A stretch of DNA of 50,977 nucleotides from Girardia tigrina (Eukaryota), in contig MQRK01231771.1 in NCBI GenBank assembly GCA_001938485.1, positions 3,158-54,134 on the forward strand. Direction: 5' to 3'. Positions 13,949 to 19,900 of this stretch are shown here, in pieces. A program made the position numbers. Numbering within the stretch: position 1 is the first letter of the stretch; every line of letters starts with the position of its first letter.

Positions 13949-16900
13949 CTTTGAACAATTAAATTATATACTTAAGTAATTAAACTCTAAAGAAATAAAA
14001 AATTAATCAAATCACAGATCGTCCACGAACAATAATTAACAAAACAAATAGATAAAGAACCCGGAATTGTCGAGAGTAAAAACCACGATAACTTGATCGA
14101 TTGTTAGAAGGATAAATTGCAATAAATAGATCGATTGTTAACAGGACTAATCGCTTATATTTTTTGATAAAATTTATATTAAAAATATCACCTAACGTAT
14201 TTTAGGTATCTAAACAATATTTTTTTCCTAAAATAATTACACTAGAGTTTTGCTATTTTTTTTTAAAGAAAAACTTTCAATTCGGAAGTGTTTTCATGTA
14301 TCAAATTTATATAATTTTAACTCTATTAAAATGCAACCATTTTTGAATAATATAATTTTTAAAAACTTGATTTCTCTTTTCTTTTCCACTTTACTTTCTT
14401 CCTCATTTATTAATCAACAAAACATGCTGACTTTAGGCTTTAGGAAATATTGTCTTGTTAATAATTAATTTATTTTTTATTACATGAATTTCAAATCTAT
14501 CTTTTGTAAATTAAGGGTAATGCGTAATTAAAGGTAACGTTGTGTTATAGTCTTAAATAAAAGATTAATAAGATTGTTTATAAAATATTTATTAACAAAA
14601 AAACAATGTTTAAAGAGTAATAATTAATAATTTCTATTTTTTAAATCATTTTTAATAATTATCATAAATGATAATATAACATCCTCCTTAGGAAATCATT
14701 AATATTTTGATACTGGATTCCTAGTGCTTTTAATCGGGTATCTCATTTTCCTGATAATTGAATCTTTCTCATTTACTTGATTCATAATCTATTGGTGCGT
14801 TTAACTCCCCGTTGTATTTTTATAACTGATTATAATTTCTTCTCATTACTTTCTGCGATGTTTCATCTTGAAGAATATTGATGATGCCTAATACATAACG
14901 ATGACCATCTTTAGTACAACGAAAGGACCACAAATATCTATTTCAATCATTTGAAATGGTTGGTTTACGAAAAATCTCTGAAGAGGGACTTTATCACAAC
15001 CGTTTTTCCCTTCATTCTCGAACATGCTTCACATTTTGTAACGTAATTCCTTATATCTGTTGTCATGTCTGAACAATAAAATTCAATTTTCATTTATAAC
15101 TTTTGTAATATTATAGATAATATAAATTGATTATTTATTTTAGTAAAAATACAAATATTAATATATTACTAACTGTAAAAATAAGGAATCTGATTAAATA
15201 ACTGACAAGCAATAGTTTCGATATCTTTACAAATAAAAATACGACTGAATGACAAACAAACCAAGCTGACCAAAAAAGAGTTTTTGATGAGCTTAGTTGT
15301 TGAAAAAAATAACGCAAATAATAATAAAATAATATTCAGTAAAATTAGAATCAGGATTTTAACTAATAACAGTTTAATTGGATAACAATTACTTACAAAC
15401 TCGTATGATTATACACAAAATGGATAGCAAAAACAGAGATAGGCAATTCAATGTTCGATCAAGAGTTTAATCAACGGATTAGTTAACGAAATCGCAAAAA
15501 AAATGTCTGTCGGAAATCTTGCCGTCAGGAAATACAGAATAATATTTATTTCTATAGTGATTGCAATTTGAAATTTGATTCAAATTGCAATTATCATGAT
15601 AATTAAATTATTATTACAATATAATTATCACGACAATATAATTAAATTATCATGACAATAAAAATTTGGACGATTGTCATACAATTCATATAGATGGCTT
15701 GAATTAATATAATTAATAATAATTAATATAAGAAAATGTTTCATTCTTTTCTTTATCTATCCTTCTTTATCTTCTTCTTTGTTTCCATCACTTGACAAAC
15801 AAATTTGCGTAAAGATAAAAGTAAAAATATGAATAAAAAATAACATTTAAATAAATTACCACATCACATGTTGTCAGAGTATGTACAACTCACGTATACG
15901 CACGTAAAAAGACAAAAAAAGAAAAAAATATATAAATAAAATAAACTGTTAACAACGAAATTGAGAGGTTATTACACAAAACGTTTGCTAAAATGAAGTA
16001 TCACACTAACTATAACAACCTCGTGTTATATTATCACTAAACATAAAAGCACAAATGAAAATAACTATTTCACAATACACAGGTAAAAAATAAAAACATT
16101 TTGATAAATATTTATTTTTCTTTTATTTAATTTTTCAATATTTAAAACTCATTTTTTTAATTTTAATTTTTGTTTTAAATAATTCTGTTATTATTATCTA
16201 CCTGCAATTGTAAGTAGTTGAATTATTATAATTATTAATATATTTATTAATATATATTGCAGATATTAATATATAATTTTTATTTAATTATCTACTTACA
16301 ATTTTAAGTAGATTATCAAGCTTGAGGCTTAAACAAACAAACAAACATTTGGTAAATATATAAGTTTATGGACATGTATAATAAGTTTAAATGAATTTCT
16401 ATAAATAATGATAAAATCATAAAAAATATAATGTTATTAAAAAGATAATTAAGTCATATATGATTATAAAAGTAATTTGGAGCAAAAAACATACCTGGTG
16501 TACGGAGAGCTAATGAGGAGCGAATGGCTGTTGTCCTGTTGGAGGTTTCTATTTGTTGCGGTTGTTGATTTTGGAGTAAATTGAGGTCAATCTGAAGAAC
16601 GATAGTTGTTGACTGATTAGGTTCAACGAAAAAATTACCATAGTCTCAGACATCTGCTCATTATTCGCACGTCGGATTTCAAATGCTGTGTTCGGATTAT
16701 CAAGCTTCATTCTGATTTGCACCTGAAGTAGTGCGTAAGCCAGTTTCGGGTTATCAATTAGGTATTGGCGAGCTTCACACGGATGGTTCTCAATATATTG
16801 TTTCATTTGTGGGATCAAGTCACACAGTTTTTCCTGTGTCATTCTCGCAACTGTCTGTCCAACTACCGACCCAGCTTGTTGTGTGTTGCATTTCTCTTCA

Positions 16901-19900
16901 TAGATATTTCGAAACTCCGTGCTGTTCTTGTCCCGATTGGAAGAAATGATCTTTAACGGCTGGTCGTTGTAGGCCAATGTAATTGTAGCGACTGTATCAC
17001 TGTTATTTTGACTATCGATATCAGTATCAACCTAAATGTAAACATTGAAAGTGCAATTGCTTTAAGTACAATAATTAATTTCGTTTCAGAAAATTAAGAA
17101 GATACAATATATATGATAGTGTATTTACTAATTGAAAATTTTGAAATTCATTGCTCTTAATACCTGAATGTTTCTATTGAAAAACTAAAGTTTGTTGATA
17201 AAATAGAGTGGAATCTTTTATCTTAGTGATGATAATTAAACATTGTGTCTAATAGCATCCTTTTAATCTGCATTCATTTTTGAGGGAAAAATGATTATTT
17301 TTTATTTAGAATTCATTTTCAATAACAACTTTGGGGATAAATTTCGTTGTATTTAAGGAATTTCGGTTTTTCAATGCACAAATTATTTAAAGAAGTGTAA
17401 CGAAATACGCTTATTGAGAATGACAATATAACTTTTAATATTTTTATTAATAATCCAACCAAAGGATCAAGGCGTTACATTCAATTTTCAGGTTTATTAT
17501 TTGTGGCGAACATTTAGGTAGATGTTTGAAAAACAGACGGAGAAAAGAAGCAATCAATAAAAGAATTTTGGAAAAAGCACATTATCATAAATGCTGTAAA
17601 ACGCAAAAACCTTTCTTGGAGTGAAAATTAATTAATAAATTATCGGAAAATTGACATATAACCTAAACCTAATAGACCTAAGAAATTGACCTATAAAAAA
17701 GTCCTGCCCTTTAAAATTGACCAATAAATTTGAAATTTACCTAAAAAATTGACGCATATAACAACAATTCACTTTAAATTAAAAATAGACCATTAAATAC
17801 ACAAGTAAACTAAATAGTTAAAAAACATTACCATTGAAAATCGTTTATTAAACAAAAAAGTAATTTTTAACATTTTTAACGTCAAAATTGAGGTCTTTTG
17901 AGAAAAGTTTTTTTTTTAATCTAGAAAAACTTCTCTCAACAGAAGTGTTTGAGCATGGGGCTTTAATTAAAAACGCATGAGTTTCAGGCGACATTTTTCG
18001 ATTTGGCTCTTCCAAAAACGAAAAAATATCATTTTTATACAATTACTTGATAATGTATTGCTTGATTTCAGCTGGGCCTTCTTCAATTTTTTGATTGCAA
18101 GTCACATTTGTGAATATAGAAGTTTGTGTTTTCGCTTTCGTTCAATAAACGAATAATGCAAACGTATTCTCGAATGATTTTTTTCAAAAGTGCCATTCAA
18201 ATAGAGGATATCAAAAAATCAAGGTCTTCGAATTTTAAATACATACATCAGTTGTGCAGTAGGTGGAGGCTTAACTAAAATTATTTCTTTTAACGATTGC
18301 ACTTTTCGCTGAATACTTTTTAATCAAAGATTTATTTATTCGGGTTTTAACACAATTGTCTAAAGTTGTTGGTTTTCTTCAAAAAAATAAAAAAGATCAA
18401 AATTGTTGGAACTTCGATAAACCACTTTCGATATTTATCGAACATTTAAACACTTGGATAAACATTAAAAAAGATTTATTTCTTCGATTCAGTAGTTCAT
18501 AATAAAGTTCTACTTTAAAATTTCGTCCAAATTTCAGTATTTTTAGAATGAACGATTCCGTGAATACTCCACTAAACACATAAAAGCATCTTTGGATGTT
18601 AGCCTGCCTTATCAATAATCTGTAGTGATATATTCGGAGGGTATCACTGCTTTTCGTACTTTAGATTATTTAATCTTTTTTTAATCTTTACTGATCAAGT
18701 GTTGAAAAACCGCACTTATATTGGGCCATAGGAGTAATAGGTTGCAGCTAGTGCATTGGTTAAATTTGTTTTCTTCAGGCGAACTATGTTGGATTTTCAA
18801 TTACTGTAAATAACAGAATTTATAAATTATCTAGGATCTTAAATTTGAAAATCACTTTAGAATATCTCGTTAAAATTTTGGGACATTGCACACATGATTA
18901 TTTTTTTATTTAAGAGACATAAATTGGGTCGATTTAAAACTATAGTTATAATTTAAGTTTAGTTTAATAAGTTTAGAAATTTTTACCGAATATGTTTACA
19001 TAATCTTTAACTTTAAATTAATTGAAAAAAGCTAATCAGAGTACAGTATTTACTCTCTCAACCGCCATTTTCTCTCAGTCGCCATTTTTTCTTAACCTCA
19101 TGAATCAGGGGATACAAAATTGACTTTTTCAGATTTAAAATGGGATAATTTTTAGAAAGTGTTTAATTTAGAAAAATACATACTTTTAAATATCAATTAT
19201 TGTTTAAATATCAGATAAATATCAATTATTGGCGAATTTAAAAATCAAGGAAATTCACAAAATTGACCATAAATAACATATCCAAAATGTGTCAGACTTA
19301 CAATCAGTGAAAAAATCGAAATTATACGGTATTGTAACACAAATCCACACGTAACAGACAATCAAATTGCGCCCATGTTTGAGCATAAATTTAAAAAACA
19401 AGTTTCTCGATGGATGATCAATGATTTAAGGAAGAAAGAAAGACGATTTATTAAAAAAATGTGAATTTAGAATCAAAGGATAAATATCGCAATCCTATAT
19501 TAAAATATGGAAAAATAGACGAGGAATTATCTGATTATTGATTCTGCGGGTGGAATAATTAATGACAGCATATTAATAAACAAAGCTTTATCTATCACAA
19601 AGACTCAAAATATCATGGACTTCGAAGGATCAGTTGGATGGCTGCTAAAATTCAAAGCAAGACATGAAATTAAGTTGATGAAGTTACATGGAGAATCTTT
19701 TACAACAGCACTTCCAAATAATGAAGATTTTTTAAATGTTTTAAATTCGTTCTTATGGTCCGGATAATGTATACAATGCCGATGAAACTGGTATTTTTTA
19801 TAAACTCAATCTTTCCAAAATTTTGTGTAAAAATGTGAGAAGCGGGTATAAAATATTGAAATATAGAATATCTGTTCTTTTGTGTACAAATATGACGGGA

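What the first reader, a model, noticed from the sequence alone, without database searches (positions are those of the whole stretch)
16495..17031. Nested antisense CstF-64 hinge gene that appears to have lost its RRM
Seen: a minus-strand frame open from an acceptor at 17031 through a recognisable CSTF2 hinge, then a Q/P-containing linker ending at a canonical donor at 16495. Only an RRM-tail-like segment (YNDQPLKI, cf. FSGRALRV) precedes the hinge; the RNP1 motif KGYGFCEY is absent. A possible upstream donor at about 17163 would give ...TFR|LI, echoing the conserved SFR-LV junction, but out of frame with the hinge. No CSTF C-terminal domain exon was found. Established: the hinge binds CstF-77 and symplekin. 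Inference: either a decaying duplicate, or an RNA-binding-deficient paralog that could modulate 3'-end processing, hidden in a housekeeping gene's intron.
Basis: partly seen in the sequence, partly recalled or inferred. Interest (0 to 1): 0.68.

Follow-up and report, generated by a model that had tools for sequence, protein, structure and literature searches.

The report
Divergent hinge-only CstF-64 gene piece
Inside an intron of a metabolic gene, on the opposite strand, sits an intact but strongly diverged piece of the mRNA 3'-end factor CstF-64 that keeps its protein-binding hinge but not its RNA-binding part; it may be a hidden regulator or a leftover copy.

Summary
The hinge is real. Minus-strand exon 17031-16639 matches Pfam CSTF2_hinge (E 3.1e-15) and a CstF-64 family profile (E 4e-27). 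The frame is not open to 16495 as written. It stops at 16551-16549 unless a 47-nt GT..AG stretch (16638-16592) is an intron, and the second exon (16591-16495) has no homology support. No RRM or CSTF_C was found in the window. The locus lies antisense in a ~30-kb intron of an MCCC2-like gene.

The hinge is far more diverged (median 37% identity) than CstF-64 hinges are from each other (68%), yet the frame is intact. Losses spare the most conserved columns (20/32 against 11/42 kept, p=0.002). Exon GC is 42-44% against 7-25% in the flanks. Simulated neutral decay to this divergence leaves at most 1.3% of copies stop-free.

Simple decay of a canonical copy is therefore unlikely. The best reading is a selected RRM-less hinge paralogue, or a recent copy or corpse of one. 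Start codon, 5' exon, expression and paralogue count could not be determined. The exons were not joined.

The parts
16639..17031 (-). Exon 1 of the model (131 codons, phase 0 at both ends). It holds about 20 unassignable codons, an RRM-tail-like stretch, a short linker and the hinge domain.
   Evidence: Open frame. Pfam CSTF2_hinge E 3.1e-15. Family profile 84.5 bits. tblastn with 54 CstF-64 proteins gave 55 matches here, best E 3.5e-18. GC 42%.
16948..16971 (-). RRM-tail-like stretch (YNDQPLKI), corresponding to the last strand of the CstF-64 RRM.
   Evidence: It aligns with residues 89-96 of P0005, 4 of 8 identical, within the E 3.5e-18 alignment. There is no RRM_1 Pfam hit. AF2 puts residues 1-46 at pLDDT below about 50 with no domain.
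16684..16887 (-). Hinge domain proper (residues 49-116). Five predicted helices extend to residue 128.
   Evidence: Pfam profile positions 9-77 of 81. AF2 helices at 53-63, 66-82, 84-93, 95-107 and 113-128, with pLDDT 66-92. The top Foldseek PDB match is the Rna14 monkeytail/Rna15 hinge heterodimer 2l9b, which is weak (E 0.28, prob 0.89).
16592..16638 (-). Putative 47-nt intron (GTAAT...CTAAT...TTCTTCAG). This is a hypothesis and is not tool-predicted.
   Evidence: Read from the sequence. GC is 34% against 42-44% in the two exons. If it is retained, the frame stops 29 codons later.
16495..16591 (-). Putative exon 2 (32 codons plus 1 nt), a Q-rich linker that ends at CAG|GTATGT.
   Evidence: Open in the frame reached by the 47-nt intron. 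GC 44%, dropping to 7-17% immediately past the donor. No Pfam hit. Best blastp against the 150 CstF-64 hits is E 0.65, so there is no homology support. If the donor is not used, a stop follows 45 codons from the exon start.
12803..12889 (+). Host gene exon (MCCC2-like) that bounds the host intron on the left.
   Evidence: tblastn with P0151, P0152 and P0158, E 1e-4 to 6e-6.
43055..43243 (+). Host gene exon (MCCC2-like) that bounds the host intron on the right.
   Evidence: Pfam Carboxyl_trans E 1.6e-16. PDB methylcrotonoyl-CoA carboxylase beta chain E 8e-22. tblastn E 6e-22.

Best explanation
This is a coding unit derived from CstF-64 (CSTF2/Rna15 family). It has kept only the hinge, the five-helix module that binds the CstF-77 'monkeytail' and symplekin, and it no longer encodes a usable RRM.

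The lineage behind this sequence has been held open by selection while diverging far from ordinary CstF-64. The most likely present state is an exon pair of an RRM-less 'hinge-only' paralogue, nested antisense in an intron of the MCCC2-like gene, with a 5' exon still unidentified.

Proposed mechanism: the product would occupy CstF-77 and/or symplekin in place of CstF-64 without bringing an RNA-binding domain, and so damp or redirect 3'-end cleavage and histone mRNA processing.

Shown here:
- The hinge is encoded.
- The frame is intact.
- The helix 3-4 contact residues are kept.
- The RRM and the C-terminal domain are absent from the window.

Inferred:
- The 47-nt intron and exon 2.
- Expression.
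- Partner binding.
- The competitive effect.

My confidence that selection shaped this lineage is about 0.8. My confidence that this very locus is a working gene today is about 0.45.
For: 1. Family membership of the hinge: Pfam E 3.1e-15, family profile E 4.1e-27, and 257 library proteins at E<=1e-3. All 40 of the 40 best that I scanned carry CSTF2_hinge.
2. Divergence far beyond the family norm: hinge identity to 54 full-length CstF-64 proteins is median 0.37 and maximum 0.42, against median 0.68 among those 54. No library representative is 50% or more identical; the best is 45%. Pfam score is 56.8 bits against 89-111 bits for the 40 relatives.
3. The organism is not simply fast-evolving: host exon 43055-43243 is 75% identical to a mussel MCCC2.
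4. The frame is nevertheless intact, with 131 codons and no stop. In my neutral substitution simulation of exon 1, runs that reached <=62.5% amino-acid identity stayed stop-free in 0.7% (equilibrium GC 0.22) and 1.3% (GC 0.40) of 300 runs each. Frameshifting indels would lower this further.
5. Losses are not uniform. The window keeps 20 of the 32 columns that are >=90% conserved, but only 11 of the 42 columns that are 70-90% conserved (Fisher p=0.0022).
6. The kept residues include R88, L97, L101, L102 and M108 (plus L110). Their spacing equals that of human R159, L168, L172, L173, M179 and I181, whose mutation breaks CstF-77 binding (passages of PMC6294498). The mapping is by spacing and by alignment A1, not by alignment to the human protein.
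7. Exon-like composition with sharp edges: 42% and 44% GC in the two exons against 17-25% in the flanks. GC falls from 45-50% to 7-17% right at the 16495 donor. A true host exon forms the same kind of GC island (12721-12930).
8. AF2 gives five helices with pLDDT 66-92. A canonical-type hinge run the same way gives 79-92.
Against: - No ATG precedes the hinge in exon 1. The first in-frame Met is residue 64, inside the hinge.
- No supported upstream or downstream exon was found.
- 12 of the 32 near-invariant columns are changed, including the S-L-P-P stretch between helices 1 and 2. Helix 1 has the lowest confidence. The CstF-77 contact may therefore be impaired.
- The locus sits among transposon debris, a typical home of dead gene pieces.
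- No similar protein of 72-230 or 231-2000 residues was found by the word-indexed search. The host gene's own protein is also missing from that collection (best 52% identity), so this absence says little either way.
- The selection argument assumes a canonical-like parent. A young copy of an already diverged paralogue located elsewhere would look the same.
- I have no expression, population or cross-species data.
Confidence: 0.5

Rival explanations
1. This is a dead gene fragment: a partial DNA-level duplicate (or transposon-carried piece) of a CstF-64 family gene, comprising one or two exons and a short intron. It has no promoter, start or ends of its own and is drifting inside a transposon-rich intron. 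Its frame is intact because it is young (copied from an already diverged paralogue, or from a gene at this locus that died recently) or by luck.
For: - There is no start codon before the hinge.
- No RRM, CSTF_C or other supported exon lies on this strand in the window.
- The stretch before the 17163 donor is out of frame with the hinge and closed by a stop.
- The neighbours are transposon remnants: an integrase zinc-domain piece 1.4 kb downstream, broken pogo-like copies 2-5 kb upstream, and an RT fragment.
- 12 of 32 near-invariant hinge columns are changed.
Against: - Old neutral decay from a canonical parent is improbable. At most 1.3% of 300 simulated runs were stop-free at the observed minimum divergence, before counting indels.
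- Losses are concentrated in the less conserved columns (p=0.002).
- GC, including third positions at 44%, has not relaxed towards the 17-25% of the flanks.
- All four splice-site motifs of the model are intact.
- The 'young copy' version needs a diverged functional paralogue elsewhere, which moves the novelty to another locus rather than removing it.
Confidence: 0.35
2. This is the organism's ordinary CSTF2 gene, or an ordinary full-length paralogue. Its RRM exons and C-terminal exons lie outside the window or are too short or too diverged to be seen.
For: - Introns here are very long: 8 kb and 30 kb in the host gene.
- Some predicted relatives begin at the same RRM-tail position. P0001 starts 5 residues before the homologous Y, which hints at an exon boundary inside the RRM in that clade.
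- Short exons at about 40% identity would be hard to detect.
Against: - The part of the RRM that exon 1 itself should encode (helix 2 and the last strand) is not RRM-like. There is no RRM_1 hit at E<=1, and AF2 gives no fold for residues 1-46.
- No RRM_1 hit appears in the 200 open segments of >=50 codons on both strands.
- None appears in 290 of the 396 minus-strand segments of 22-49 codons upstream, covering 17078-42361.
- The CstF RRM sub-profile's best hit over all 2723 segments is E 0.19.
- The hinge is about half as similar to the family as family members are to each other, while the host gene exon is normally conserved.
Confidence: 0.05
3. The hinge is a captured host domain that belongs to a transposable element or to a chimeric transposase-host gene on the minus strand.
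For: Same-strand transposase remnants lie upstream: a hAT-like C-terminal tail at 17851-18042 (my reading, with no Pfam hit) and a pogo-like copy at 21255-22275. An integrase zinc-domain remnant lies downstream on the same strand.
Against: - No terminal inverted or long direct repeats bracket the hinge.
- The transposase remnants are broken or end in their own stop.
- The piece is single-copy within the window.
- A putative intron argues against capture through RNA.
Confidence: 0.08

Closest known systems
CstF-64 / CSTF2 (yeast Rna15), the RNA-binding subunit of cleavage stimulation factor
   Same: Homologous hinge domain (Pfam PF14327) with five predicted helices, as described for human CstF-64 (passages of PMC3016980). 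Helix 3-4 residues are kept. The last RRM strand and the linker before the hinge are still alignable.
   Different: There is no RNP1/RNP2 and no recognisable RRM fold, and no CSTF_C domain in the window. Hinge identity is only about 37% against about 68% within the family. The conserved S-L-P-P stretch is replaced. In a 2012 survey, all species examined had the RRM in their CSTF2 homologue (passages of PMC3287031).
tauCstF-64 (CSTF2T), the known mammalian paralogue
   Same: A second family member beside the canonical gene, thought to tune 3'-end processing (abstract starts in the search listing).
   Different: CSTF2T keeps the RRM and has similar RNA-binding specificity (abstract start of PMC3884657). 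It was found only in human and mouse in that survey. That it is an intronless retrogene is my recollection, not a call result. The present piece lacks the RRM and appears to contain an intron.
Rna14 monkeytail / Rna15 hinge heterodimer (PDB 2l9b)
   Same: It is the top structural match of the predicted model. The hinge is known to fold together with its partner, which fits the moderate stand-alone confidence of both the window model and the canonical control.
   Different: The match is weak (E 0.28, TM 0.36-0.48). No partner sequence from this organism was available, so the interface could not be modelled.
Natural decoy paralogues that keep a binding module and lose the nucleic-acid-binding one (for example Id proteins among bHLH factors; recalled, not from a call)
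   Same: The proposed logic is the same: compete for the partner without delivering the activity.
   Different: The families are unrelated. For this locus, neither binding nor expression has been shown.
Unprocessed (duplicated) pseudogene fragments in introns
   Same: A partial gene with no start and no ends, sitting in a transposon-rich intron.
   Different: The frame and splice motifs are intact despite very high divergence, and the loss of conserved residues is non-uniform.

Membership tests
CstF-64 / CSTF2 / Rna15 family | Hinge domain (PF14327) | tested here: met
   E 3.1e-15, 56.8 bits against a cut-off of 27. Family profile E 4.1e-27.
CstF-64 / CSTF2 / Rna15 family | N-terminal RRM with RNP2 and RNP1 | tested here: not met
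   No RRM_1 on exon 1 at E<=1. None in 200 open segments of >=50 codons. None in 290 of 396 shorter upstream minus-strand segments; the other 106 (42304-50975) were covered only by my CstF RRM sub-profile, whose best hit was E 0.19. The test is valid only within the window.
CstF-64 / CSTF2 / Rna15 family | C-terminal CSTF_C domain (PF14304) | tested here: not met
   None in the six-frame profile search. Sub-profile best hit E 1.2 over 2723 segments. None in the 51 minus-strand segments between 12602 and 16645. The test is valid only within the window.
CstF-64 / CSTF2 / Rna15 family | Binding of the CstF-77 monkeytail and of symplekin through the hinge | not testable with these tools
   Only indirect evidence: helix 3-4 residues are kept and the helix 1 region is diverged. 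No partner sequence from this organism was available.
Nested antisense gene in a host intron | Lies wholly between two consecutive host exons on the other strand | tested here: met
   Host exons at 12803-12889 and 43055-43243 on the + strand. The hinge exons lie at 16495-17031 on the - strand.
Nested antisense gene in a host intron | Own start codon, first exon and 3' end | tested here: inconclusive
   No ATG precedes the hinge. The candidate 5' ORF at 25288-25626(-) is unsupported. AATAAA/ATTAAA hexamers 200-380 nt past the donor are uninformative at 6.35 per kb background.
Processed pseudogene (retrocopy) | No introns, poly(A) tract, target-site duplication | tested here: inconclusive
   A well-formed 47-nt GT..AG stretch interrupts the frame, which argues against a retrocopy, but the intron itself is unverified. 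No flanking direct repeats were found.
Transposon-captured gene fragment | Bracketed by element ends; multiple copies with shared flanks | tested here: inconclusive
   No bracketing inverted or direct repeats. Genome-wide copy number could not be tested.

The most novel reading that the evidence does not exclude
An animal genome carries a selected 'hinge-only' CstF-64 paralogue with no RRM and no C-terminal domain. It is encoded antisense inside an MCCC2 intron. Helices 2-5 are conserved and helix 1 is remodelled. In human CstF-64, helix 1 mutation abolishes CstF-77 binding but spares symplekin (PMC3016980), so this pattern would bias the product towards symplekin over CstF-77. It would act as a built-in competitor that tunes poly(A)-site choice or histone mRNA 3' processing.
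Probability: 0.3. Interest if true: 0.72.

Novelty: new variant of a known kind. Interest (0 to 1): 0.45.

Why it matters
In every species of a 2012 survey, CstF-64 was an RNA-binding protein with an RRM (passages of PMC3287031). Its hinge is the single docking point for two mutually exclusive partners, CstF-77 and symplekin (passages of PMC3016980). A naturally encoded hinge without the RRM would be a ready-made competitor at that docking point. It would be a simple, testable way for a cell to change the balance between polyadenylation and histone 3'-end processing. None of my four literature searches listed an RRM-less natural paralogue.

If the piece proves to be a relic, the finding is an ordinary gene fragment. 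It would then serve mainly as an example of how an intact frame can mislead.

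Tried and rejected
1. RRM remnant before the 17163 donor. It is a 21-codon open piece closed by a stop, AT-rich, and out of frame with the hinge. It gave no tblastn hit at E<=30 and does not rank in the RRM sub-profile. Rejected as unsupported.
2. RNP1-like string at 23608-23733(-). tblastn E 0.018 for one of 54 queries, with a stop inside the alignment; sub-profile E 0.19; no Pfam RRM_1; no acceptor motif. 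Treated as chance.
3. Hinge-like strings at 26319-26477(+) and 28818-28880(-). E 0.14-9, with stops. Treated as chance.
4. Other weak upstream tblastn matches (41.4-49.3 kb). All have E>=0.5, most with stops.
5. PDB sequence searches. The single-sequence search gave 0 hits. The profile of A1 returned only RRM proteins, because the alignment includes RRMs. Neither was useful for the hinge.
6. Word-indexed protein searches with exon 1. 'Longer' gave 95 candidates with none significant. 'Near' gave 2 candidates with none significant.
7. ESM Atlas. For exon 1 it returned only CSTF2_hinge clusters, top score 0.88, which is lead-level. For the 25.3-25.6 kb ORF it returned nothing.
8. Rfam on the whole window: 0 matches.
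9. Repeats or element ends around the hinge: none found.
11. The prokaryote-only genome-contig collection was not used, because it cannot hold this locus.
12. Pfam on the last 106 short upstream segments (42304-50975) was not run.

Full report
**What is there.** On the minus strand, the frame starting at 17031 is open for 160 codons and then stops at 16551-16549. A TAG at 17034-17032 closes it upstream, and its AG is the proposed acceptor. The first 131 codons (17031-16639) match Pfam CSTF2_hinge: E 3.1e-15, 56.8 bits, cut-off 27, residues 49-116, profile 9-77 of 81. A profile built from 54 full-length CstF-64 proteins found this place and nothing else credible in the six-frame translation of the window: 16929-16639, 84.5 bits, E 4.1e-27. 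The other four reported stretches were low-complexity matches with E 0.14-6. The observation of a hinge is therefore confirmed and is far beyond chance.

**The splice model.** It starts with GTAAT, contains CTAAT 24 nt before its end, and ends in TTCTTCAG. Removing it leads into a different frame that is open for 32 codons and ends at CAG|GTATGT. Its GC is 34%, against 42% and 44% for the two exons.

No tool predicted this intron, and I could not check relatives for it, so it is a hypothesis. Exon 2 alone has no Pfam match and no significant similarity to any of the 150 retrieved relatives (best E 0.65). If the intron is retained, the frame ends 29 codons later. If the 16495 donor is unused, a stop follows 45 codons after the start of exon 2.

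**What is missing.**
- Exon 1 aligns to CstF-64 from the last RRM strand onward. P0005 residues 89-210 align to 16971-16639, E 3.5e-18, with 4 of 8 identities in the YNDQPLKI stretch.
- The 20 codons before that stretch show no RRM character. Pfam gives no RRM_1 at E<=1, and AlphaFold2 leaves residues 1-46 without a fold, with pLDDT blocks of 42-51.
- No RRM_1 was found in the 200 N-free open segments of >=50 codons on both strands (26 further segments containing N were left out).
- None was found in 290 of the 396 minus-strand segments of 22-49 codons upstream of the exon (17078-42361). The remaining 106 segments (42304-50975) were not sent to Pfam.
- CstF-specific sub-profiles run over all 2723 open segments of >=12 codons gave a best RRM hit of E 0.19 and a best C-terminal-domain hit of E 1.2.
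- Pfam found no CSTF_C in the 51 minus-strand segments between 12602 and 16645.
It is out of frame with the hinge, the piece in front of it is only 21 codons long and closed by a stop, and its likeness to the RRM has no statistical support.
- No ATG precedes the hinge in exon 1. The first Met is residue 64.

**Context.**
- The + strand carries an MCCC2-like gene. Carboxyl_trans matches lie at 4056-4640 and 43016-43246. The best solved relatives are methylcrotonoyl-CoA carboxylase beta chains. tblastn with three homologues places exons at 4119-4580, 12803-12889 and 43055-43243, and possibly at 45282-45494.
- The hinge therefore lies antisense in a ~30-kb host intron.
- The intron is full of transposon remains.
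- The window is 20-34% GC. Its nearest named relative of the host exon is a mussel protein.
- The 7 N runs (953 N) were left as they are.

**How diverged, and what that implies.**
- A full HMMER scan of 1.84 billion representatives gave 257 hits at E<=1e-3. The best was 45% identical, and none reached 50%.
- All 40 of the 40 best hits that I scanned have the hinge at 89-111 bits. Of these, 22 also have RRM_1. The 18 without it include obvious partial models that start inside the RRM tail.
- Over the hinge, the window is 37% identical (median; maximum 42%) to 54 full-length family members, which are 68% identical to each other (median).
- The host exon 43055-43243 is 75% identical to a mussel MCCC2, so the lineage is not generally fast. 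Host exon 4119-4580 is more diverged, at 40-52%.
- The window keeps 20 of the 32 columns that are >=90% conserved, but only 11 of the 42 columns that are 70-90% conserved (Fisher p=0.0022). It falls short of a uniform-loss expectation of about 0.5 (binomial p=0.0014).
- The kept residues include R88 and L97/L101/L102/M108 (with L110). Their spacing equals that of the human helix-3 and helix-4 residues whose mutation disrupts CstF-77 binding (passages of PMC6294498). This mapping is by spacing and by alignment A1.
- The changed residues cluster in helix 1 and the S-L-P-P turn.
- In a substitution-only neutral simulation of exon 1, runs that reached <=62.5% identity were stop-free in 0.7% (equilibrium GC 0.22) and 1.3% (GC 0.40) of 300 runs each. 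At <=80% identity the figures were 12-18%.
- GC stays at 42-50% across the exons and falls to 7-17% right at the 16495 donor. The 5' edge is softer, at 28-33% over the first ~40 nt.
- AlphaFold2 predicts five helices with pLDDT 66-92. A canonical-type hinge (P0008) run the same way gives 79-92. The best PDB fold match is the Rna14/Rna15 hinge heterodimer, though weakly.

**Reading.** Plain neutral decay of a copy of the ordinary gene does not fit these numbers. Two readings fit:
- Selection has kept this hinge open while it diverged, giving an RRM-less paralogue that is alive or only recently dead.
- The piece is a young copy of such a paralogue located elsewhere.

I put about 0.8 on the lineage having been under selection and about 0.45-0.5 on this locus being functional now.

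The mechanism I commit to is competition. A hinge without an RRM would occupy CstF-77 and/or symplekin, whose binding to the CstF-64 hinge is mutually exclusive (passages of PMC3016980). In human cells, helix 1 mutation abolishes CstF-77 binding but spares symplekin, and helices 2-5 are needed for symplekin (same passages). The window's pattern of remodelled helix 1 and conserved helices 3-4 therefore suggests a bias towards symplekin. That last step is inference.

**Literature.**
- I read passages (find mode) of PMC3016980, PMC6294498 and PMC3287031. Of the other papers, I saw only search listings and abstract starts.
- PMC3287031 states that all species examined had the RRM in CSTF2, and that CSTF2T was found only in human and mouse.
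- Four searches listed no natural RRM-less hinge-only paralogue. The term 'CSTF2_hinge' occurs in 0 papers.
- Supplements were closed. The helix boundaries in Supplemental Figure S2 of PMC3016980 were not seen.

**What stayed unchecked.**
- No eukaryotic genome or transcript collection was available. The source organism's canonical CSTF2, paralogue count, dN/dS, synteny and expression are therefore all open.

**Virus-like stretch.** The only retrovirus- or retroelement-like signals I saw are two:
- An integrase zinc-binding-domain remnant at 14968-15093(-): Pfam Integrase_H2C2, E 3e-6, 27.7 bits against a cut-off of 25.5.
- A reverse-transcriptase fragment within 13167-13749(+): RVT_1, E 4e-4, below its cut-off.

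They lie on opposite strands. Neither is linked to the hinge by repeats or by a reading frame. I describe them only.

Noticed in passing
window 14968-15093 (-): Remnant of an integrase zinc-binding domain (Pfam Integrase_H2C2, E 3e-6, 27.7 bits, cut-off 25.5, profile 32-57 of 59). It is LTR-retroelement or retrovirus-like. No integrase core or RT was recognised on that strand nearby at the thresholds used, so the gene is mostly unrecognisable and its breaks cannot be counted. It lies 1.4 kb downstream of the hinge exons on the same strand, with no sign of a link.
   Followed up: partly
window 13167-13749 (+): Reverse-transcriptase fragment (RVT_1, E 4e-4, below the curated cut-off). It is broken by at least one change of frame. 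The motif style looks LINE-like to me, which is a recollection and was not tested.
   Followed up: no
window 19273-20528 (+) and 21255-22275 (-): Two pogo/Tc5-type DNA-transposase copies (CENP-B_N, HTH_Tnp_Tc5, DDE_1). Both are broken: one is in 5 open pieces and the other in 3. A further DDE_1 scrap lies at 7943-8233 (-).
   Followed up: no
window 32707-33039 (-); 17851-18042 (-): hAT-family dimerisation domain (E 1.5e-9). The second ORF, 0.8 kb upstream of the hinge exon on the same strand, looks like a hAT C-terminal tail to my eye but gave no Pfam hit.
   Followed up: partly
window 7417-7850 and 38598-39121: A pair of 95-100% identical direct repeats about 31.2 kb apart, each next to an N run. 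These are probably two copies of one transposon family. The ORF at 38056-38352 (-) nearby recalls piggyBac transposases (recollection; no Pfam hit).
   Followed up: no
window 4119-4580 (+): This host MCCC2-like exon is 66% GC in a neighbourhood of about 20% GC, and all frames are open across it. It is also the less conserved of the host exons, at 40-52% identity to relatives against 62-75% for exon 43055-43243.
   Followed up: partly
window 33186-34221: Tandem repeat with a unit of about 340-353 nt. Three copies, 74-100% identical.
   Followed up: no
window 25288-25626 (-): Unexplained 113-codon open frame in a 41% GC island, on the same strand 8.3 kb upstream of the hinge exon. It has an in-frame ATG and a possible phase-0 donor (AAG|GTTAGC). 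It gave no Pfam or Atlas match. That it could be a 5' exon of the hinge gene is pure speculation.
   Followed up: partly
window 23608-23733 (-): A string resembling RNP1 and the end of a CstF-64 RRM. tblastn E 0.018 for one of 54 queries; sub-profile E 0.19; no Pfam RRM_1; a stop lies just before it. This is chance level.
   Followed up: yes
window 30965-31612 (-): A 47% GC island with a 215-codon open frame that runs into an N run. The N-free pieces around it gave no Pfam hit. It is unexplained.
   Followed up: no
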